Source of the DNA: a virus
Length of the DNA: 6,314 nucleotides
Direction: 5' to 3' (one strand)
IMG/VR virus record: IMGVR_UViG_3300020041_000065
Span: 1 to 6,314 of that record
A program made the position numbers and the translations under genes. The notes below the pieces were generated by a model. The model was not told where the DNA came from and searched no databases. It was given only the letters and a program-made list of their open reading frames with translations. Below, one piece after another: positions 1 through 6,314 of the stretch. Positions within the stretch are counted from its first letter, which is position 1. The number at the start of each line of letters is the position of its first letter.

Positions 1-121
1 AGTATCTGTTGTTTTCTAATGCTCACTTTGTCGTGACCAGTGCACGTCGCACCCCTGAACAGAATAAGGCTTGTAATGGCGCTCCTAATTCTCAACATCT
101 AATAGGCGAAGCTATTGATAT
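1..121. repeat. Left copy of the 121-nt terminal redundancy (circular-genome overlap)
   Basis: Exact match to 6194-6314. It lies inside the peptidase coding sequence, so it is a wrap-around of a circle, not a biological LTR or att repeat. Confidence 0.95.
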
Positions 122-281
122 CAAGCCTTATGGCTCTACTACTTATAGTCAGTTGCTTGAATATATTCATAGTTATTCGGATAATGTTCATATATTTGAT
201 CAATTGATATTATATCCTACATTTATTCATATTTCGTTTGGCCCGCGTAATCGTCGCCAGGTGATTGATAAGAGAAAATAA
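1..281 (+). CDS. Peptidase M15 family (VanX/VanY-like, LAS-type zinc D,D- or L,D-peptidase), putative endolysin; 3' portion of a gene cut by the window start
   Basis: First complete codon is at nt 3; stop TAA at 279-281. The translation ...FVVTSARRTPEQNKACNGAPNSQHLIGEAIDI...TFIHISFGPRN carries the SxHxxGxAxD zinc-ligand signature (His codon 96-98, Asp codon 117-119) plus a distal His (228-230). The 5' end (ATG 6166) is visible in the repeat copy. Full product is 102 aa: MNYSLMHFLEYLLFSNAHFVVTSARR... Confidence 0.8.
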   Translation, partial: YLLFSNAHFVVTSARRTPEQNKACNGAPNSQHLIGEAIDIKPYGSTTYSQLLEYIHSYSDNVHIFDQLILYPTFIHISFGPRNRRQVIDKRK

Positions 282-283
282 TT

Positions 284-2104
284 ATGAAATATACGCCGGA
301 GTTACTTAAAGCTGCTGATCATTGTCAGCATCGCTCTTTCATTACCAACAGATATACAGGTAAGCGTATCGCTGTAGATTGCGGTCAATGTGACTACTGT
401 ATCCACAAGCGAGCTCAAAAGGCGTCTATGCGTGTGAAGACCGCTGGAAGTGCCTTCGAACATTGTTGGTTTGTTACGCTCACCTATGATAACGAGCACA
501 TTCCGTTGTTTAACTGCGAGGTGTACCACTCTGAATACGACGATGTTTTAAGTGACTCCGGTATTGTTTATGGTTATGAAAAACATTCGTTTATTCCGGT
601 ATCCGAGTATAGTTGCTCAGATTCATCTTTCTTGTGTCATATATTCTTTACACAAGTACAGGGTACAGTGCCTTATAACCGGAAATCATCTCAGTATGAA
701 TCGGTTAAGGATAATTGGTTTCTTTCTATGGATGCTATCCGCTCCTTTATTGCTAAGACGAAGTCCGCTACACCTTATGGTAAAGAAGGAGAGCTTTCTG
801 CTAGATACGGAGATAATCTTATCCCTTATCTGAATTATGTCGATGTTCAGAATTATATTAAACGATTACGTAAACATTTAAAAACAGCTTTAGGTTCTTA
901 TGAAACGTTACACTTCTACGCTGTGGGTGAATACGGACCAGTCCATTTCCGCCCGCATTATCATATCTTATTATTCACGAACTCGAAAGAAATCCCAAAG
1001 GTATTACGACAGTGTCATGATAAGAGTTGGAAACTCGGTCGTTCAGATTTTCAGGTTGCCCGCGGTGGAGCTGCATCGTACGTTGCGAGTTACGTTAACA
1101 GCCTTAGTTCTGCTCCCCTGTTATATAGATCATGCCGCGCGTTTAAACCCCGCCAGAGAGCGTCTCTTGGATTTTTTGAGAAAGGTGAGGTTTTTGAGGA
1201 AGGTGAAGACATCTATCATGCGATTGAACAAAAAATCGATTCTGTCATTAATGGACGAGTCTATAACTTCAACGGGATTAGTGTTAAATCAACTCCCCCC
1301 ATGTCGTATATCCGTACCTTACTCCCCCGATTCTCAAGCGCTCGCTATGACGATGCTGTTGCGATTGCTAGAATTATTCGAGCTGTTGCAAGCGCGCCAA
1401 AAAGAATGGCAAGGTTCGGTATTATAGATTATGATTCCGATTCTATCCTTTCTATTGTTCGTGCTTATTATCAGTATCTTACATTGAATCATCACCTGAC
1501 CAATGAAGACGAAATTATATTACATAACGCTCGGTGCTCTACTAGGCTCTGTAACAGTTCTTCTGATGTCGATATTGAATCTTTTCTTAATAAGTTGTAT
1601 CGGCTATTCCTTTATGTCAGTAAGTTTCTTAGGAATTGGTATCTGCCTTCCATCGGTGGCAATCTTGATTCTTATGCCAATCGTATTATGTTTATCATCA
1701 AAACCGGAATAGAATATGAAAAGAAAACAGACTATGTACGAATGTGTGATTCGTTGCGAATACAACAGACTTTGCCTTCCCCTATGCTTCGGTATTTCTA
1801 TATACCAGCCGAGGGATGCGAAATGGCGTCCATTGGTATCGGAGAAGACGGAGAATATGCAGACGGATTTATTCGTCCCATTAAAGAACAGATACACGTT
1901 CCGTTTGATGACCCCAGAATCCCATCTCTCGCGGCTTGTAATTACATCAAATCCGCGAAACCCGATACAAGAAGTTCCTATGATAGTGGGCAAAGTAGCG
2001 ACTTACAAAAATGTCTTGATTTCCGTGCTGCTACCTTCTGCCGCGATATGATTAAGCATAAAAAATTGAATGATGTAAACAATATATTTAACCGTATGGT
2101 TTAA
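284..2104 (+). CDS. VP4: Rolling-circle replication initiator protein (Microviridae VP4 / phiX174 gpA-like HUH endonuclease), 606 aa
   Basis: N-terminal CGQCDYC cysteine cluster. RCR motif I FVTLTY (nt 470-487). HUH motif II PHYHILLF (HYHILLF = nt 956-976). Double-tyrosine motif III SYVASYVNS (Tyr codons 1079-1081 and 1091-1093), close to the phiX174 gpA YVAKYVNK. T-ending codon bias throughout. The ATG lies 2 nt after the peptidase stop. Confidence 0.92.
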   Translation: MKYTPELLKAADHCQHRSFITNRYTGKRIAVDCGQCDYCIHKRAQKASMRVKTAGSAFEHCWFVTLTYDNEHIPLFNCEVYHSEYDDVLSDSGIVYGYEKHSFIPVSEYSCSDSSFLCHIFFTQVQGTVPYNRKSSQYESVKDNWFLSMDAIRSFIAKTKSATPYGKEGELSARYGDNLIPYLNYVDVQNYIKRLRKHLKTALGSYETLHFYAVGEYGPVHFRPHYHILLFTNSKEIPKVLRQCHDKSWKLGRSDFQVARGGAASYVASYVNSLSSAPLLYRSCRAFKPRQRASLGFFEKGEVFEEGEDIYHAIEQKIDSVINGRVYNFNGISVKSTPPMSYIRTLLPRFSSARYDDAVAIARIIRAVASAPKRMARFGIIDYDSDSILSIVRAYYQYLTLNHHLTNEDEIILHNARCSTRLCNSSSDVDIESFLNKLYRLFLYVSKFLRNWYLPSIGGNLDSYANRIMFIIKTGIEYEKKTDYVRMCDSLRIQQTLPSPMLRYFYIPAEGCEMASIGIGEDGEYADGFIRPIKEQIHVPFDDPRIPSLAACNYIKSAKPDTRSSYDSGQSSDLQKCLDFRAATFCRDMIKHKKLNDVNNIFNRMV

Positions 2105-2126: not shown

Positions 2127-3863
2127 ATGAGTGATTTTAATCCGCTAGACCGAGCGAAAGTTGCCGTGCATCGCTCTTCCTTTGACTTGTCTAGTAAAAA
2201 ATTGTTTACGGCAAAAATTGGAGAGATTCTTCCTTGTTATTGGCAGATTGCTATTCCCGGTAATAAGTACCGTATCTCTTCCGATTGGTTTACCCGTACT
2301 GTTCCCGTCAATACGGCTGCATATACCCGTATTAAAGAGTATTATGACTTTTACGCTGTGCCGTTACGCTTGATTTCTCGTGCGCTTCCGCAGGCGTTTA
2401 CTCAGATGACGGATTATATGACGTCTGCTGCTAGTAATACTGCTAACACCGAGATGTTGACTTCTGTTCCGAATACAACGTTGAGCGTGTTGTCACTAAG
2501 TCTTCAGACGATTAATGGTCAGGATATTTTCGATGATGCTGGTCTCCCTTATGTTTATGGCGCTTCTAAGGTATTGGATATGCTTGGATATGGTTCTTTC
2601 CTTGCGTCTTCGAATACTGCTAAAACTGCTATTACCGGTGCTTATCTAGGTAAGAGCTCTGTAGCAGATGCTGATAATCCTTTGGTTTACAAAGTTAGTC
2701 AGACTGTGAATCTTCTTCCGCTGTTGGCTTATCAGAAGATCTACTATGACTTCTTCTCTGAATCTCAATGGGAAAAGCACCTGGCTTATGCTTACAATGT
2801 TGACTATTGGGACGGTAAATCTCAACTGAATCTCGCTCCTGAAATGCTTCAGCTGCGTTATGCTAATTATCCGAAAGACTACTTTATGGGTATGCTTCCC
2901 GCATCTCAGTATGGTTCGGTAGCTGTTTTGTCTTCGACTGTTTCTTCTTTGCAGCCTAATGCGGTTGCTATGTCTATCGATTCTTCTCTTGCTTATCATT
3001 CTCCTATTCAGAATCCTCTTTCGTCTAATGTTGTTCAAACCTCTGTTCAGAACGGAGAAGGTGGAGTTCGTTACGCATTCCTTAACTCTGATCTTTCCGC
3101 TCTTTCAATCCGTGCAACTGAATATCTTCAGCGCTGGAAAGAAGTAGTGCAATTCTCTAGTAAGGATTATTCAGACCAGATGCGTGCTCAATTCGGTATT
3201 AAAGCCCCCGAATACATGGGAAACCATGCTCATTATATCGGAGGTTGGTCTAATGTTATCAATATCAATGAGGTTCTCAATACCAACCTTGAAGCCGCTG
3301 GTTCTCAAGCCGTGATTGCTGGTAAGGGTGTAGGTTCTAACTCTGGCCATACATTAACTTATGATTGTGGCGCTGAACATCAGGTGATTATGTGTGTTTA
3401 TCATGCAGTCCCTATGGTTGATTGGAATCTGTCTGGCCAGAATCCTCAGTTGACTGTTACGGCTATTACTGATTTCCCCCAACCTGCATTCGACCAGTTG
3501 GGTATGCAGCCTGTCCCTGCTCTGAATCTTCATAATAACCCGTCTCGTGAAGTTTCTGGTTCTCTTGGATATAATCTTCGGTACTGGCAATGGAAGACTA
3601 ATATTGATACTGTTCACGCTGCATTCCGCTCTGGCATGGCTTACCAGTCCTGGGCTGCTCCTATTGATGGCTGGGAAGTTCTCACCTCTTCTGGTTCTTG
3701 GTCATATCAGTCAATGAAAGTTCGCCCTCAGCAATTGAACTCTATCTTTGAGCCTCAGGTTTCAGGCCAGAATTGTTCCGTTGCTTACGATCAGTTGTTA
3801 TGTAATGTTAATTTCCAGGTTTATGCTGTTCAGAATTTGGATAGAAATGGTTTACCTTATTAA
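2127..3863 (+). CDS. VP1: Major capsid protein (Microviridae VP1 / phiX174 F-like), 578 aa
   Basis: The N-terminal pattern HRSSFDLSSKKLFTAKIGEILPCYWQIAIPGNKYRISSDWFTRTVPVNTAAYTRIKEYYDFYAVPLRLI follows the conserved F-protein pattern (FdLS...G.L.P....lPG..f.i....R..P......r.....FFVP.RL). Long uninterrupted ORF with strong T3 codon bias. Largest structural gene, as expected. Confidence 0.92.
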   Translation: MSDFNPLDRAKVAVHRSSFDLSSKKLFTAKIGEILPCYWQIAIPGNKYRISSDWFTRTVPVNTAAYTRIKEYYDFYAVPLRLISRALPQAFTQMTDYMTSAASNTANTEMLTSVPNTTLSVLSLSLQTINGQDIFDDAGLPYVYGASKVLDMLGYGSFLASSNTAKTAITGAYLGKSSVADADNPLVYKVSQTVNLLPLLAYQKIYYDFFSESQWEKHLAYAYNVDYWDGKSQLNLAPEMLQLRYANYPKDYFMGMLPASQYGSVAVLSSTVSSLQPNAVAMSIDSSLAYHSPIQNPLSSNVVQTSVQNGEGGVRYAFLNSDLSALSIRATEYLQRWKEVVQFSSKDYSDQMRAQFGIKAPEYMGNHAHYIGGWSNVININEVLNTNLEAAGSQAVIAGKGVGSNSGHTLTYDCGAEHQVIMCVYHAVPMVDWNLSGQNPQLTVTAITDFPQPAFDQLGMQPVPALNLHNNPSREVSGSLGYNLRYWQWKTNIDTVHAAFRSGMAYQSWAAPIDGWEVLTSSGSWSYQSMKVRPQQLNSIFEPQVSGQNCSVAYDQLLCNVNFQVYAVQNLDRNGLPY

Positions 3864-3873
3864 TGTATTGATT

Positions 3874-4317
3874 ATGAGAAGTTTTGCGTATAATAATGAG
3901 AATTTTGAAAAGAATTCGTATGTTCCTGAGCTGAAAGAGGGCAATCCGTGCTATCAGGCTTCTGTTTATGATCCGGTTATGTATGATGAGACTCCTGACG
4001 GTGATCTGGTCCAGTGTGATATGACCCAGATTCTTTTGAATCAGGAAAAGTACCGTCGTTTGCTTGGTGATATGAACGTTAATAATATCCTTGCCCAAAT
4101 GCATCCTACTCAATCTACTGTGATGGATGGTATGACGGATGATGAACGTTTTGCGTGTGTTATATCGCGTCATTGTCAGACAATGTCTGAACGTCAGGCT
4201 GTATTACAGCAATTGGCTAATGAGAAATCAGATCTTACCGCATATGCTCAAGCTATGTTGGCAGAGGAACAGGCAGCGCCGTCTACGGATTCCGCCCCTG
4301 CCGCTAGTGCACAATGA
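3874..4317 (+). CDS. Hypothetical acidic 147-aa protein; its position between VP1 and VP2 is compatible with an internal scaffolding (VP3-like) role
   Basis: First ATG after the VP1 stop, 10 nt downstream. The ORF-track extension 3748-3873 overlaps VP1 and is discounted. T3 codon bias. Acidic, with an Ala/Gln-rich C-terminus. Its stop TGA (4315-4317) overlaps ATG 4314 of the next ORF (ATGA). I recognise no diagnostic motif, so the function is a guess from synteny and size. Confidence 0.6.
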   Translation: MRSFAYNNENFEKNSYVPELKEGNPCYQASVYDPVMYDETPDGDLVQCDMTQILLNQEKYRRLLGDMNVNNILAQMHPTQSTVMDGMTDDERFACVISRHCQTMSERQAVLQQLANEKSDLTAYAQAMLAEEQAAPSTDSAPAASAQ

Positions 4318-5480
4318 GGTTTCTAGAAGTTGGAGAGAGCATGCTCTCTCCTAGAAATGAACATCATTTCCTTGGTGCTGCTATTAGTGGTATCTTCGGT
4401 ACATTGCAACAGTCTAGCGCTAATCGTGCTAATTATCGCAATACTCAGACTACTAATAAGTTTAACATGCTGGAAGCCCAGAAACAACGTGATTGGCAAG
4501 AAAAGATGGTTGATGAATCGCGAGAATATAATTCTCCTGAAGCTATGATTGCCCGTGGTTTGAATCCTTTTATGTCTGGTTCTGCTGCTCTGACTGGTGC
4601 TGGTTCAGGTTCTTCACCTTCTGGTGCTCAGGCTTCTGCTGTCAATCCTATTCCGTATCAGGCTTTTCATCCTGACTTTTCAACTGTGGATACTGCTTTG
4701 GCTTCGTTTGCTCAAGCCAAAAAGGCTCTTTCTGAAGCTGAACAGATAGAGACTCTTACCCCTTATTTGGTTAATAGGATTTTGGGTGATACTAATTATA
4801 AGAATATTGGTGTCGGTCAGTCTGGTTATTGGAATAAGGAAACAGGTCGTATTTCTGCTGAACTGGACCAATCTATGGAGCGTCAGGAATTAGAGAACGC
4901 TGTTACTGCTGGTAAGCTTTCTGCCGCTCAAACGACTCAGGTCTACCTACAGTCTGATGCTCAAGCTATTATGAATAAGTATATGGATGCCCAGCAGCAA
5001 GCAGATTTGTTTACAAAAGCCCAGTATCTTTATAACCTTGTACAACAAGGAGCTCTGACTGAGAAACAGATTCGAACTGAAATTCAACGTTCAATCCTGA
5101 TAGCTGCCCAGGCGCAAGGTCAGAAGATTAATAATAAGATAGCTGCTGGTACTGCTGATGCTCTTATAAGTGCTACTAATATGGCTTACTATACACAGTA
5201 TTATGATTCTCTTTGGGATTATAAGAACGTCAATAATCGTAAGAATATGCAATATTCTAAGGATAAGGCCTTGCGTGACTATTATAAGTGGTCTGCTGGG
5301 AATGCCAAGAAGGACTTTGAGTCTTACGGCCTTCGGAATGCAATAGATTATACATCTCGTATTTCTTCTGGTGTTGGTAATGTTATTGGATCTATGCGTC
5401 CTGGTGCCCAGATATACCGTAATGATTACGGTCCTCGTAATACTACTATATATAATGGTTCTAATGGTATTGGTTATTAG
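4314..5480 (+). CDS. VP2: Minor capsid / DNA pilot protein (Microviridae VP2, phiX174 H-like), 388 aa (379 aa if started at ATG 4341)
   Basis: The N-terminal segment NKFNMLEAQKQRDWQEKMVDESREYNSPEAMIARGLNPFM matches the conserved VP2 pattern (...W.E.M.....YNSP......GLNP). It is followed by a Gly/Ser-rich linker (GSAALTGAGSGSSPSGAQ) and a long Gln/Ala-rich helical, coiled-coil-like region typical of pilot proteins. ATG 4314 overlaps the upstream stop. The alternative ATG 4341 is preceded by GGAG (4332-4335), the only clear SD-like element in the genome. Confidence 0.85.
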   Translation: MRFLEVGESMLSPRNEHHFLGAAISGIFGTLQQSSANRANYRNTQTTNKFNMLEAQKQRDWQEKMVDESREYNSPEAMIARGLNPFMSGSAALTGAGSGSSPSGAQASAVNPIPYQAFHPDFSTVDTALASFAQAKKALSEAEQIETLTPYLVNRILGDTNYKNIGVGQSGYWNKETGRISAELDQSMERQELENAVTAGKLSAAQTTQVYLQSDAQAIMNKYMDAQQQADLFTKAQYLYNLVQQGALTEKQIRTEIQRSILIAAQAQGQKINNKIAAGTADALISATNMAYYTQYYDSLWDYKNVNNRKNMQYSKDKALRDYYKWSAGNAKKDFESYGLRNAIDYTSRISSGVGNVIGSMRPGAQIYRNDYGPRNTTIYNGSNGIGY

Positions 5481-5507
5481 CTGTTAGTACATACTTCAGG
5501 ACTAAAA

Positions 5508-5554
5508 GCCCATCGCGGCGTTTGAGCGATATACACCCGCCGCCCGCGTAGGGC
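5508..5554 (+). other. Stem-loop A: imperfect inverted repeat GCCCATCGCGG / CCGCGTAGGGC
   Basis: 5508-5518 GCCCATCGCGG pairs with 5544-5554 CCGCGTAGGGC (4 bp + 2-nt internal mismatch + 5 bp) around a 25-nt loop. An alternative inner stem is GCGGCG (5515-5520) with CGCCGC (5538-5543). Confidence 0.55.
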
Positions 5555-5566
5555 CTGATCGAAAAA

Positions 5567-5613
5567 CGGAGCGGAGCGACTTCTTTATAGGAGCGCCCCG
5601 CTCCGGTATTTTA
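5567..5613 (+). terminator. Stem-loop B followed by a T-rich tract: candidate intrinsic terminator downstream of VP2
   Basis: CGGAGCGG (5567-5574) pairs with CCGCTCCG (5598-5605). An alternative tight hairpin is GGAGCG-CCC-CGCTCC (5590-5604). It is followed by GTATTTTA (5606-5613). GGAGCG occurs three times (5568, 5573, 5590). It lies about 90 nt after the VP2 stop on the coding strand. Confidence 0.4.
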
Positions 5614-5629
5614 GCGCAGCGCGCGCAAA

Positions 5630-5652
5630 GGCAAGACAGTTCCTGCCTTGCC
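5630..5652 (+). other. Stem-loop C: GGCAAGACAG-TTC-CTGCCTTGCC
   Basis: 10-bp stem with a single A/C mismatch (5630-5639 versus 5643-5652) and a 3-nt loop. It is preceded by a (GC)4 self-complementary run at 5619-5626. Confidence 0.55.
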
Positions 5653-5818
5653 GTGCCTATACACCTCTGTATACATCCACTTGTTAATTAAGCGAAGCCC
5701 CTAGTTGTGTGCGAAAGCAAATTCGAGTTATCCTCTCGAATTCTCCTGTCTCTTGTCTATAAACGCACAACTCACACCCAACTGTAGAATCTTAATTCTC
5801 AAAAAAAACTCCAAATTA

Positions 5819-5901: not shown

Positions 5902-6096
5902 ATGCAGAAATTTATTATTTCGCTTAAAGAAAAACAAACTGGTCGTGATGTTATGCCGCCTTATATTGTCAATTCTCTGGATGGTCTTGGAGATTATTCT
6001 GAGCGAGTTTCTCCGTTGGGTCTTATTGTTATTGTGGATTCAATTAAAGAAGAAAATAATTTCGTTGAACTTAAAGCTCAAAGTGATGAAAAGTAA
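5902..6096 (+). CDS. Hypothetical 64-aa protein, first gene after the intergenic region
   Basis: ATG-initiated. The pronounced T-ending codon usage (ggt cgt gat gtt ... cct tat att gtc aat tct ctg gat ggt ctt) matches the recognised genes. Slightly acidic, no TM segment, and no motif I recognise. Confidence 0.6.
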   Translation: MQKFIISLKEKQTGRDVMPPYIVNSLDGLGDYSERVSPLGLIVIVDSIKEENNFVELKAQSDEK

Positions 6097-6169
6097 TAAT
6101 ATTTGGAAAATTATTATCGGTGCTGTATCTGCCGCTCTTGGTTACGTTCTTAATGCTATTGGATTATGA
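6086..6169 (+). CDS. 27-aa single-pass transmembrane micro-protein (MKSNNIWKIIIGAVSAALGYVLNAIGL), candidate holin-like or membrane partner of the peptidase
   Basis: From 6097 to 6165 this is the only open + frame, and it shows the genome's T3 bias (ggt gct gta tct gcc gct ctt ggt tac gtt ctt aat gct att). ATG 6086 lies 11 nt inside the end of the 64-aa ORF. Its TGA (6167-6169) overlaps the peptidase ATG 6166 (ATGA). It has a charged N-terminus followed by about 19 hydrophobic residues. The start is uncertain: in-frame ATGs also occur at 5948 and 5981. Confidence 0.5.
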   Translation: MKSNNIWKIIIGAVSAALGYVLNAIGL

Positions 6170-6314
6170 ATTATTCTCTTATGCATTTTCTTGAGTATCT
6201 GTTGTTTTCTAATGCTCACTTTGTCGTGACCAGTGCACGTCGCACCCCTGAACAGAATAAGGCTTGTAATGGCGCTCCTAATTCTCAACATCTAATAGGC
6301 GAAGCTATTGATAT
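6166..6314 (+). CDS. Peptidase M15 family, 5' portion (same gene as 1..281; runs off the window end)
   Basis: ATG 6166 overlaps the upstream stop (ATGA). The reading frame continues through the repeat copy 6194-6314, which equals 1-121, and on to the TAA at 279-281. An alternative start is ATG 6181 (97 aa). Confidence 0.8.
   Translation, partial: MNYSLMHFLEYLLFSNAHFVVTSARRTPEQNKACNGAPNSQHLIGEAID
6194..6314. repeat. Right copy of the 121-nt terminal redundancy
   Basis: Exact match to 1-121. Confidence 0.95.

What the first reader, a model, noticed from the sequence alone, without database searches (positions are those of the whole stretch)
5902..6314. Holin/endolysin-style lysis module (TM micro-protein + M15 zinc peptidase) in a microvirus
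Seen in sequence: three ORFs are chained by overlaps. ATG 6086 sits inside the end of the 64-aa ORF, and ATGA at 6166-6169 joins the 27-aa TM ORF to the peptidase. The peptidase (6166..6314 continuing into 1..281) has SxHxxGxAxD plus a distal His, with only about 16 residues and no signal-peptide-like segment before the catalytic core. Established knowledge: phiX174-type microviruses lyse with the single protein E, which inhibits MraY and is not a muralytic enzyme. Gokushovirus-type microviruses have no well-defined lysis gene. M15 peptidases are bona fide endolysins of dsDNA phages (for example T5 and Listeria phage A500). From memory, M15-like peptidase ORFs have been noted in a few metagenomic microviruses, so the enzyme is not unprecedented, but I know of no characterised export partner or mechanism. 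Inference: a cytoplasmic endolysin needs a membrane lesion, and the translationally coupled TM peptide is the obvious candidate. That would make this a miniature two-component lysis cassette in a 6.2-kb ssDNA phage.
Basis: partly seen in the sequence, partly recalled or inferred. Interest (0 to 1): 0.75.

Follow-up and report, generated by a model that had tools for sequence, protein, structure and literature searches.

The report
Tiny membrane peptide beside microvirus endolysin
A 6.2-kb gut microvirus carries a known type of cell-wall-cutting enzyme, and just upstream of it an unannotated but strongly conserved 27-codon gene for a membrane peptide related to the uncharacterised Bacteroidales 'smalltalk' (DUF6486) family; the two probably act together to burst the host, though this is not proven.

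Summary
The window is a complete circular microvirus genome (unit 6193 nt, with a 121-nt terminal repeat). ORF64 (5902-6096), a 27-codon ORF (6086-6169) and a 102-aa peptidase (6166-6193 + 1-281) are chained exactly as described.

The peptidase is a trimmed Peptidase_M15_3 with H42, D49 and H86, and it has no export signal. This enzyme was already reported in microviruses (Roux 2012).

The new part is the micro-ORF. No inspected GenBank record or gene call includes it, yet it is present in 78/78 close relatives with dN/dS of about 0.07. A 29-aa version sits upstream of the peptidase in a second lineage.

By profile-profile comparison it is a divergent member of Pfam DUF6486 / NCBIfam 'smalltalk'. 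In Bacteroidales genomes and in another microvirus, that family lies next to M15_3 or amidase genes.

This supports a two-gene lysis module: a membrane peptide plus a cytoplasmic endolysin. Two results argue against strict holin dependence. A third lineage keeps the micro-ORF directly before the replication gene with no peptidase anywhere. One genome keeps the peptidase without the micro-ORF.

The parts
5902..6096 (+). ORF64: a 64-aa acidic protein of unknown function and the first gene of the chain. Its last 11 nt overlap the micro-ORF start.
   Evidence: ORF. There are 2831 homologues; the best 120 are 92-100% identical and none carries a Pfam domain. Positional homologues of 54-73 aa precede the micro-ORF, the peptidase or VP4 in lineages B and C and in more distant relatives. 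No Pfam, PHROG or NCBIfam hit. The AF2 model is all-beta but low confidence, pLDDT 63.
6086..6169 (+). Micro-ORF: 27 aa, MKSNNIWKIIIGAVSAALGYVLNAIGL. It has a polar, positively charged N-terminus followed by a 19-22-residue segment rich in small residues that could span a membrane. It is a divergent, minimal relative of DUF6486 / 'smalltalk'.
   Evidence: Present in 78/78 lineage-A loci. Of 75 extracted copies, 74 start with ATG and 1 with GTG, and 70 are exactly 84 nt. dN/dS is 0.07 in its own frame, against 0.19 for the peptidase. Mean Kyte-Doolittle hydropathy over 19 residues is 2.0 and net charge is +2. HHalign against a DUF6486 profile gives probability 96.3% and score 37.4; 120 column-shuffled controls reached at most 15.6. 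It is not annotated in the GenBank relatives inspected and not called in the JGI, ENA or Logan gene calls seen.
6166..6314 (+). Peptidase gene, 5' part (residues 1-50). It includes S40-Q-H42 and D49. Coordinates 6194-6314 duplicate 1-121.
1..281 (+). Peptidase gene, 3' part, reading on from 6193 through the circular junction (residues 10-102 plus the TAA stop). It contains D76 (198-200), H86 (228-230) and S88. Total length is 102 aa: an N-terminally trimmed Peptidase_M15_3.
   Evidence: Pfam PF08291 gives E 5.9e-9 and 36.5 bits (gathering cut-off 23.2), with residues 18-87 matching profile positions 42-107 of 108. PHROG 894 'endolysin' gives E 2.2e-16. The AF2 model has pLDDT 88.3 and pTM 0.80. 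The top Foldseek hits are all LAS/M15 peptidases: 1LBU, ChiX 5OPZ, VanY, LysECD7, LysB4, Ply500. H42, D49, H86, R26, D76 and S88 are invariant. dN/dS is 0.19.
284..2104 (+). VP4 replication initiator (context). It starts 3 nt after the peptidase stop. In lineage C the micro-ORF abuts this gene directly.
   Evidence: Pfam REP_ORF2-G2P and PHROG 942. Lineage C architecture.

Best explanation
The region is a compact, probably two-component, lysis module of a Bacteroidales-associated gut microvirus.

Shown:
- A 102-aa, signal-less, N-terminally trimmed M15_3 (LAS-fold) zinc peptidase belongs to an endolysin family.
- Immediately upstream lies a real, strongly constrained 27-codon gene for a peptide hydrophobic enough to span a membrane once.
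- That peptide is a divergent, minimal relative of the Bacteroidales small-protein family DUF6486 / 'smalltalk'.
- DUF6486 genes are neighbours of M15_3 or Amidase_2 genes in Bacteroidales genomes and in another microvirus.

Inferred mechanism:
1. Late in infection the peptide inserts N-in/C-out in the cytoplasmic membrane.
2. It self-associates through its small-residue face (G12, A13, S15, A16, A17, G19).
3. It permeabilises or depolarises the membrane.
4. This lets the folded cytoplasmic peptidase reach the peptidoglycan, where it cleaves stem peptides or cross-links, and the cell lyses.

The membrane peptide is probably the older and more general component, because lineage C has it without the peptidase. 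The peptidase would then be an acquired enhancer, possibly captured together with or next to a smalltalk-type gene from Bacteroidales or their phages. ORF64 is conserved alongside, but its role is unknown.
For: Peptidase identity:
- Pfam M15_3 scores above the gathering cut-off, and PHROG 894 'endolysin' matches.
- The AF2 model plus Foldseek point to LAS peptidases and endolysins.
- H42, D49 and H86 are invariant.
- dsDNA-phage homologues sit in holin-endolysin(-spanin) cassettes: Bacteroides phage BS-TP2 and Stenotrophomonas phage Salva.
- No export signal: the best 19-residue Kyte-Doolittle mean in the N-terminus is 0.98.

Micro-ORF is a real gene:
- 78/78 conservation, codon-position pattern and dN/dS 0.07.
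- Lineage B has a 29-aa version in 20/20 loci found through the peptidase alone, and in 46 of 51 matches to a DNA pattern back-translated from the lineage-B peptide.

Membrane character: 19-residue Kyte-Doolittle mean 2.0, positive N-terminus.

Family link:
- HHalign probability 96.3% and score 37.4, against a shuffled maximum of 15.6.
- The lineage C peptide has DUF6486 as its top Pfam hit, E 0.013.
- The micro-ORF HMM finds a DUF6486 protein in Bacteroidales loci at E 5e-4.

Recurrent pairing of DUF6486 with cell-wall hydrolases:
- Bajarodmic virus 1034: a 31-aa bona fide DUF6486/smalltalk ORF directly upstream of a 162-aa M15_3.
- A Bacteroidaceae MAG (L261): a 30-aa DUF6486 ORF followed by an M15_3 that shares the DQLIxYPTFxH and NRRQ motifs with the window enzyme.
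- M15_3, then a 190-aa gene, then DUF6486, in 10/10 places examined.
- M15_3 ... DUF6486, then Amidase_2.

Host clade: about 30 of 40 closest cellular homologues of the peptidase are in Bacteroidales.
Against: - Lineage C (ON840043 and four IMG/VR genomes) keeps the micro-ORF immediately before VP4 and has no peptidase in any frame. The peptide therefore has a function independent of the enzyme.
- Microvirus mar63 has ORF64 followed by the peptidase with no micro-ORF homologue.
- Three of eight other microvirus lineages with full-length M15_3 show no adjacent intergenic TM ORF.
- The peptide has no hydrophilic C-terminal tail and no significant match to any holin family.
- A 27-aa single helix would have to make lesions large enough for a 12-kDa folded enzyme, and this is undemonstrated.
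- Some DUF6486 genes (the 33-aa type) sit next to HU-like genes with no hydrolase in view.
- The canonical acidic residue two positions after the third His (HxD/E) is Ser88 here, so activity rests on the untested idea that the invariant D76 substitutes for it.
- No spanin-like gene was found for the outer membrane.
- No experiment exists for any member.
Confidence: 0.5

Rival explanations
1. The micro-peptide is itself the lysis effector, a single-gene-lysis ('protein antibiotic' or autolysis-triggering) peptide in the manner of phiX174 E or the 37-residue LysM of phage M. The peptidase is a later add-on that only speeds or completes wall breakdown once the envelope has failed.
For: Lineage C genomes carry the micro-ORF but no muralytic enzyme. 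The peptide is more strongly constrained than the peptidase, dN/dS 0.07 against 0.19, as expected if it contacts a specific host membrane protein. There is precedent for very small TM lysis proteins: the 37-residue LysM blocks MurJ (PMC12506998), and functional Sgls of around 25 codons exist (PMC7693330).
Against: Homologues (DUF6486/smalltalk) are common chromosomal genes of the presumed host clade. That is hard to reconcile with an inhibitor of an essential step unless they are tightly regulated. The repeated synteny with cell-wall hydrolases argues for cooperation with an enzyme. A cytoplasmic peptidase kept under purifying selection in a 6-kb genome implies that it reaches the wall. Chamakura et al. 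found that most TMD-containing small ORFs are not lytic.
Confidence: 0.2
2. The micro-peptide has a non-lytic role, such as a membrane tether or cofactor for replication or assembly, superinfection exclusion, or a signalling or regulatory peptide. Its adjacency to the peptidase would then be an accident of where the peptidase was inserted, just upstream of VP4. The peptidase would act alone or with host factors.
For: In lineage C the micro-ORF abuts VP4. mar63 and several other microviruses have a peptidase without it. Some chromosomal DUF6486 genes follow HU-like DNA-binding genes near VapE- or primase-like genes, with no hydrolase seen. Canonical DUF6486 ends in a lipobox-like G-A-T-S-C motif that the phage peptides lack, so family function may not transfer. 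The family has no known function.
Against: Independent co-occurrence of DUF6486 with M15_3 or Amidase_2 in bacterial genomes and in a second, differently organised microvirus is not explained by an insertion-site accident. A signal-less peptidase still needs some route across the membrane.
Confidence: 0.2
3. The two ORFs are expressed as one signal-anchored endolysin through programmed recoding: a -1 frameshift at the ATGA junction, or stop read-through.
For: In the window a -1 shift at TTA-TGA would join the TM peptide to Met1 of the peptidase. In most lineage-B genomes the two ORFs are in the same frame, separated only by the stop codon and one sense codon.
Against: The frame relationship is not conserved. 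Lineage A needs a -1 shift; in lineage B the distance from the first base of the stop codon to the peptidase ATG is 6, 12, 19, 24, 35 or 59 nt. There is no slippery heptamer at the junction. The peptidase ATG and its MNxxLM start are conserved. The stop codons are TAA, TAG or TGA without pattern.
Confidence: 0.02
4. The peptidase is a virion-associated entry enzyme rather than an endolysin.
For: Some phages carry M15-type domains in virion proteins; the tblastn hits included tape-measure proteins.
Against: It is a free-standing 102-aa protein with no structural-protein fusion. Its nearest phage homologues are endolysins in lysis cassettes. Microvirus DNA delivery uses the pilot protein.
Confidence: 0.05

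Closest known systems
M15_3 peptidase of Alpavirinae and gokushoviruses, proposed as an endolysin (Roux et al. 2012, PMC3394797)
   Same: Same Pfam family (PF08291), the same kind of host-associated gut microviruses, and the same proposed role in wall dissolution. GenBank relatives already annotate the gene as 'peptidase'.
   Different: Roux et al. and later surveys (PMC9239249, PMC11499846) name no membrane partner; Roux et al. note only that 5 of their 11 peptidase genes lie next to an unknown ORF (one of 153 codons), which was not compared here. The window enzyme is a 102-aa trimmed form lacking the first 41 or so profile positions, and it has HxS plus an upstream DQ in place of HxD/E.
Canonical holin-endolysin cassettes of dsDNA phages, for example Bacteroides phage BS-TP2 (holin then M15_3 endolysin) and Stenotrophomonas phage Salva
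   Same: A membrane-protein gene lies directly upstream of, and overlaps, a signal-less muralytic enzyme of the same PHROG.
   Different: Those holins are 100-150 aa with several TMDs and charged tails. Here the partner is 27 aa with a single helix and no tail. No spanins are present, and the phage is ssDNA.
DUF6486 (PF20096) / NCBIfam NF033879 'smalltalk protein' of Bacteroidales
   Same: Profile-profile similarity over the whole peptide, with the pattern K-x-x-W-K-x-I-I ... L ... L-G. Same host clade, and the same neighbourhood with M15_3 or amidase genes.
   Different: The window peptide does not reach the family's HMM cut-offs. It lacks the C-terminal G-A-T-S-C-M-G motif. Many chromosomal members have a 25-45-aa basic N-terminal extension. 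The family has no assigned function.
Single-gene lysis proteins of small phages (phiX174 E; LysM of phage M, 37 aa)
   Same: Very small single-TMD proteins encoded by minimal genomes. Lineage C of this microvirus group has only the peptide.
   Different: Those phages encode no muralytic enzyme, whereas the window does. No sequence similarity was found. E is overprinted inside another gene, while this ORF is essentially free-standing.
Pinholin / SAR-endolysin systems
   Same: Small membrane proteins rich in small residues that act by depolarisation.
   Different: The peptidase has no SAR or signal-anchor segment, so a pinhole alone would not release it.

Membership tests
Peptidase_M15_3 (PF08291; LAS / clan MD zinc peptidases) | Profile HMM score above the curated gathering cut-off | tested here: met
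   36.5 bits against a cut-off of 23.2, E 5.9e-9.
Peptidase_M15_3 (PF08291; LAS / clan MD zinc peptidases) | Zinc ligands H-x6-D plus a distal His | tested here: met
   H42, D49 and H86 are invariant in 18 sequences spanning 45-93% identity. The H/D motif aligns to T5 endolysin (2MXZ) and to 1LBU.
Peptidase_M15_3 (PF08291; LAS / clan MD zinc peptidases) | Acidic residue two positions after the third His (HxD/E), seen in other M15_3 members | tested here: not met
   The window has H86-I-S88. The HxS subtype (window, L247, L248) always carries D76-Q77 on the preceding strand, while the HxD/E subtype (L249-L251, L253, L254) lacks it. A relocated catalytic acid is my inference and is untested.
Peptidase_M15_3 (PF08291; LAS / clan MD zinc peptidases) | Complete domain | tested here: not met
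   Only profile positions 42-107 of 108 are matched, with 17 residues in place of the first 41 or so. Full-length relatives are 128-191 aa.
Peptidase_M15_3 (PF08291; LAS / clan MD zinc peptidases) | LAS fold | tested here: met
   AF2 pLDDT 88.3. The top Foldseek hits are 1LBU, ChiX, VanY, LysECD7, LysB4 and Ply500, with probabilities 0.9-1.0 but modest E-values of 6e-3 to 0.2.
Peptidase_M15_3 (PF08291; LAS / clan MD zinc peptidases) | Peptidoglycan peptidase activity | not testable with these tools
   Needs a zymogram or muropeptide analysis.
Holin | At least one transmembrane domain | tested here: met
   Kyte-Doolittle 19-residue mean of 2.0 for residues 9-27. The summed Hessa-scale score of +1.6 equals or betters the values for the reference TM peptides I entered from memory. 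No dedicated TM predictor was available.
Holin | Hydrophilic, charged C-terminal domain | tested here: not met
   The peptide ends inside the hydrophobic segment (...NAIGL*).
Holin | Gene adjacent to the endolysin gene | tested here: met
   ATGA overlap in the window. Conserved in lineages A and B.
Holin | Membership of a described holin family | tested here: not met
   No Pfam, PHROG or NCBIfam hit for the window peptide. Lineage B and C variants give only E 0.07-0.25 hits to holin models.
Holin | Timed, lethal membrane-hole formation that releases the endolysin | not testable with these tools
   Requires expression experiments.
DUF6486 / smalltalk (PF20096, NF033879) | HMM score above the curated cut-off | tested here: not met
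   The window peptide gives no hit. Lineage C reaches 15.6 bits against a cut-off of 22.7. By contrast the microvirus L247 31-aa ORF scores 43.9 bits and the L261 30-aa ORF 26.9 bits.
DUF6486 / smalltalk (PF20096, NF033879) | Profile-profile similarity over the core | tested here: met
   HHalign probability 96.3% and score 37.4 over 27 columns. Column-shuffled controls gave mean 7.9, sd 2.2 and maximum 15.6; the reversed alignment gave 10.6.
DUF6486 / smalltalk (PF20096, NF033879) | C-terminal G-[AT]-T-S-C-M-G motif | tested here: not met
   Absent from the peptides of lineages A, B and C, which stop at or before the conserved L-G.
DUF6486 / smalltalk (PF20096, NF033879) | Bacteroidales association and neighbourhood with M15_3 or amidase genes | tested here: met
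   This is not universal: the 33-aa type follows HU-HIG with no hydrolase seen.
Single-gene lysis (amurin / Sgl) | The phage has no muralytic enzyme and one small protein suffices for lysis | tested here: not met
   The window encodes the peptidase. The criterion is met only in lineage C genomes. Sufficiency is not testable here.
SAR endolysin | N-terminal weakly hydrophobic signal-anchor-release segment on the enzyme | tested here: not met
   The best 19-residue Kyte-Doolittle mean in the first 30 residues is 0.98 and the summed Hessa score is +8. AF2 places residues 3-14 as a helix packed in the domain.

The most novel reading that the evidence does not exclude
DUF6486 / 'smalltalk' peptides are a previously unrecognised class of ultra-small (27-33 aa core) holin-like lysis or autolysis triggers of Bacteroidales. 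Gut microviruses use them either alone (lineage C) or with a captured minimal M15 endolysin (lineages A and B). The host's own chromosomal smalltalk-hydrolase pairs would be the same device. If so, this would be the smallest holin known, the first holin-endolysin system defined in a microvirus, and the first function for a widespread Bacteroidales small-protein family.
Probability: 0.3. Interest if true: 0.8.

Novelty: new variant of a known kind. Interest (0 to 1): 0.62.

Why it matters
How microviruses other than the phiX174 group lyse their hosts is an open question, and these gut microviruses are extremely abundant; thousands of near-identical peptidase and ORF64 clusters turned up in public data.

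The enzyme half has been known since 2012, but no membrane partner has been proposed. The candidate partner found here is missed by gene callers because it is only 84 nt long.

It is nevertheless one of the most constrained genes in the genome, and it links to an uncharacterised Bacteroidales family that neighbours cell-wall hydrolases. That turns the question into a two-gene, three-construct experiment.

It also offers a first testable function for 'smalltalk' proteins, and a minimal lysis cassette for engineering in Bacteroides.

Tried and rejected
1. **Recoding fusion of the TM peptide and the peptidase.** Rejected. The frame and spacing vary between and within lineages, and the peptidase start is conserved.

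2. **An overprinted, holin-like 69-aa ORF inside VP4 (1503-1712) as a rival lysis gene.** The frame is open in 137/138 relatives. However, VP4 synonymous variation is not suppressed there, 0.36 against 0.40 elsewhere. The open, hydrophobic frame is best explained by T-rich third codon positions. Not supported.

3. **Prophage or host assignment.** A VP1 scan of GTDB genomes found nothing. The long contigs carrying these genes are concatemers or chimeras, not prophages.

4. **Spanin or lipoprotein search in the window.** Nothing credible.

5. **Direct sequence search of the PDB with the peptidase.** No hit. Only a profile gave weak hits.

6. **ORF64 function.** No family hits, and the AF2 model was too poor (pLDDT 63) to search by fold.

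7. **Homology of other small TM ORFs to the micro-ORF family.** The L249/L253 37-aa, L100 31-aa and L254 29-aa ORFs are not significant. The 65-67-aa TM-plus-Cys ORFs of L097, L098 and L101 look similar to L261's DUF6486 ORF by eye but give no Pfam hit.

8. **Rfam scan of the whole window.** No match.

9. **Sigma-70 promoter scan upstream of ORF64.** None found; the tool is not suited to Bacteroidales promoters.

10. **Literature.** No paper in the searchable library names a holin or TM partner for a microvirus peptidase, and none mentions DUF6486.

**Caveat.** The lineage-B dN/dS of 0.05 used copies selected by a peptide regular expression, so it is biased low. The lineage-A estimate was position-based and is not affected.
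Full report
**Observation check**

The window is a complete circular genome read past its start. Bases 1-121 repeat at 6194-6314, so the unit length is 6193 nt, with 41% G+C.

- ORF64 at 5902-6096.
- A 27-codon ORF at 6086-6169, whose ATG lies inside the end of ORF64.
- A peptidase ORF starting at the ATGA of 6166-6169 and running through the junction to 281, giving 102 aa.

The rest of the genome is a standard microvirus set:
- VP4 replication initiator, 284-2104.
- VP1 capsid, 2127-3863.
- A 147-aa scaffold-like ORF.
- A VP2-like pilot protein, 4314-5480.

All genes are on one strand and tightly packed, so overlaps as such are not special to the three ORFs.

**The peptidase**

- It scores above Pfam's cut-off for Peptidase_M15_3 (36.5 against 23.2 bits). 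Only profile positions 42-107 of 108 are matched, so it is a trimmed domain.
- It matches PHROG 894 'endolysin' at 2e-16.
- AlphaFold2 gives a confident compact model (pLDDT 88, pTM 0.80).
- The best structural neighbours are all LAS/M15 peptidases, several of them phage endolysins. E-values are modest. A sequence profile weakly finds T5 endolysin and 1LBU across the H/D motif.
- H42, D49 and H86 are invariant, together with R26, D76 and S88.
- The usual acidic residue two positions after the last His is Ser here. Among the microvirus enzymes I compared, the HxS type always carries a D-Q on the preceding strand and the HxD/E type never does. I infer a relocated catalytic acid, but this is untested.
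- The N-terminus is not hydrophobic enough for a signal or SAR segment.
- Homologues in dsDNA phages sit in classical lysis cassettes: holin then endolysin in Bacteroides phage BS-TP2, and peptidase, holins and spanins in Stenotrophomonas phage Salva.
- About 30 of the 40 closest cellular homologues are in Bacteroidales genomes. This fits the host assignment made by Roux et al.

**What was already known**

Roux et al. 2012 (PMC3394797) reported M15_3 peptidases in six Alpavirinae and five gokushoviruses and proposed an endolysin role. Later surveys repeat this without naming a membrane partner. In GenBank, 77 related records exist and most annotate the gene as 'peptidase'. The enzyme itself is therefore not new.

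**The micro-ORF is a real gene**

- None of the GenBank records or metagenome gene calls I inspected includes it. Two annotations instead extend the peptidase upstream in the wrong frame.
- It is present in all 78 lineage-A loci whose upstream region was available.
- Among 70 gapless copies (67 distinct at the DNA level), variation is concentrated at third codon positions: entropy 0.235 / 0.073 / 0.70.
- dN/dS is 0.07 in its own frame, against 1.07 and 10.3 in the other frames. The neighbouring peptidase gives 0.19.

**Membrane character**

The product has a polar, positively charged start (MKSNN..K) followed by a 19-22-residue segment rich in Gly, Ala and Ser. Mean Kyte-Doolittle hydropathy is 2.0. 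This is compatible with one N-in/C-out membrane span and nothing else. No dedicated TM predictor was available.

**Distribution across lineages**

- *Lineage B* has peptidases 46-56% identical to the window's. It carries a 29-aa version, MKSETKSKIWSAIIAAAVSLLTSIAQIFS, in the same position. The version is present in 20/20 loci retrieved through the peptidase alone, and upstream of a peptidase in 46 of 51 matches to a DNA pattern back-translated from the lineage-B peptide.
- Spacing and frame relative to the peptidase vary in lineage B (6, 12, 19, 24, 35 or 59 nt). This excludes a conserved fusion by recoding.
- *Lineage C* comprises ON840043 and four IMG/VR genomes. It has a 32-33-aa version directly before VP4, and six-frame HMM searches find no peptidase anywhere in those genomes.
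- *Microvirus mar63* has ORF64 followed by the peptidase with no micro-ORF homologue.

**Link to DUF6486 / smalltalk**

- The micro-ORF HMM picked out a 68-73-aa protein in two Bacteroidales loci (E 5e-4 among 12,065 ORF segments). That protein is a clear member of Pfam DUF6486 and of NCBIfam NF033879 'smalltalk protein'.
- The lineage C peptide has DUF6486 as its best Pfam hit but below threshold (E 0.013). The window peptide gives no direct hit.
- Profile-profile comparison of the phage peptides with DUF6486 cores gives probability 96.3% and score 37.4 over 27 columns.
- Against that, 120 column-shuffled controls averaged 7.9 (maximum 15.6), and the reversed alignment gave 10.6.
- I therefore treat the micro-ORF as a divergent, minimal relative of this family. 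It lacks the family's C-terminal G-A-T-S-C-M-G motif.
- No paper in the searchable library mentions DUF6486.

**Synteny of DUF6486 with cell-wall hydrolases**

- In bajarodmic virus 1034, a 31-aa ORF that passes both family cut-offs lies directly upstream of a full-length 162-aa M15_3.
- In a Bacteroidaceae MAG (L261), a 30-aa DUF6486 ORF is followed by a 143-aa M15_3. That enzyme shares the DQLIxYPTFxH and NRRQ motifs with the window enzyme.
- In ten of ten chromosomal places examined for two other DUF6486 proteins, the order is M15_3, a 190-aa gene, then DUF6486.
- In L291 the order is M15_3, a 317-aa gene, DUF6486, then Amidase_2.
- The association is not universal. A 33-aa type follows an HU-like gene with no hydrolase in view. 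Only 3 of 40 loci chosen through the peptidase had a DUF6486 ORF nearby.

**Other microvirus lineages**

Two further microvirus lineages with full-length M15_3 have unrelated small intergenic TM ORFs next to the enzyme: a 37-aa ORF in L249/L253 and a 29-48-aa ORF in L254. Three lineages (L248, L250, L251) show none.

**Interpretation**

Shown:
- An endolysin-family peptidase without an export signal.
- An adjacent, highly constrained gene for a membrane-type peptide.
- Relatedness of that peptide to a Bacteroidales family that repeatedly neighbours cell-wall hydrolases.

Inferred:
- The peptide makes the membrane lesion that gives the enzyme access to the wall.

The lineage C genomes show that the peptide also works without the enzyme. 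So either it can cause lysis on its own (by an Sgl-like mechanism, or by depolarisation that unleashes host autolysins), or its role is not lysis at all.

I put the two-component lysis reading at about 0.5. A peptide-only lysis effector and a non-lytic role each get about 0.2.

**Caveats**

- All functional statements are inferential.
- TM prediction rests on hydropathy scales.
- The lineage-B dN/dS was computed on regex-selected copies.
- mar63 is a single metagenomic genome.
- The neighbourhood survey of DUF6486 covers only a handful of families.

Noticed in passing
window 5490-5700: A G+C-rich intergenic block follows the VP2 stop. It is conserved at 78-95% (mean 89%) in 68 distinct relatives, and by blastn it aligns in far more relatives than the adjoining VP2 3' end. 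It folds into several hairpins with a few compensatory pairs; one hairpin (5567-5604) is followed by a T-run, like a terminator. It has no Rfam match. It could be a complementary-strand origin, a terminator or a small RNA.
   Followed up: partly
window 1503-1712: An overprinted 69-aa hydrophobic ORF in the +1 frame of VP4 has two TM-like segments and looks like a class II holin. It is open in 137/138 relatives, but VP4 synonymous variation is not reduced there, so it is probably a compositional artefact of T-rich third positions.
   Followed up: yes
window about 959-1110 and about 1859-1960 (inside VP4): Synonymous-codon variability of VP4 dips locally to 0.23-0.29, against about 0.40 overall. 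This might mark a cis element such as an origin inside the replication gene.
   Followed up: no
L097 4175-4372; L101 4379-4582; L098 within 4532-4849: More distant relatives that lack the peptidase carry 63-67-aa ORFs at or near the position just upstream of VP4. Each has one TM segment, a V/A-Q-[AS]-C motif and a Ser/Thr/Asn-rich tail, which looks lipoprotein-like. The TM-plus-QSC part resembles the DUF6486 ORF of L261 by eye, but there is no Pfam hit.
   Followed up: partly
L003 1138-1512 (PP511332, Dulem virus 238); L092 568-939: Public annotations extend the peptidase by about 21 codons upstream. That extension reads the micro-ORF region in the wrong frame, which is a probable mis-annotation caused by the uncalled 84-nt gene.
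   Followed up: yes
L090, L091, L092, L255: Contigs of 10-18 kb carrying these genes are head-to-tail concatemers or chimeras of related microvirus genomes, not prophages.
   Followed up: yes
DUF6486 proteins P0241-P0360 (for example P0264, P0279, P0346): Canonical 'smalltalk' proteins end in a lipobox-like L-G-A-T-S-C-M-G-[IL]-H, with only 3-4 residues after the Cys. Many have a basic amphipathic N-terminal extension of 25-45 aa. The phage versions lack both features.
   Followed up: no
L299-L308: The chromosomal cluster of M15_3, a 190-aa gene, DUF6486 and a 99-122-aa gene sits beside capsular-polysaccharide biosynthesis genes in several Bacteroidales contigs. The 190-aa and 99-122-aa proteins have no Pfam match.
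   Followed up: partly
window 5902-6096: ORF64 is more conserved among close relatives (92-100% identity in the best 120 hits) than the peptidase (83-94%). It has positional homologues across lineages A, B and C and in more distant genomes. Its function is unknown, and it may be a near-core gene of this microvirus group.
   Followed up: partly
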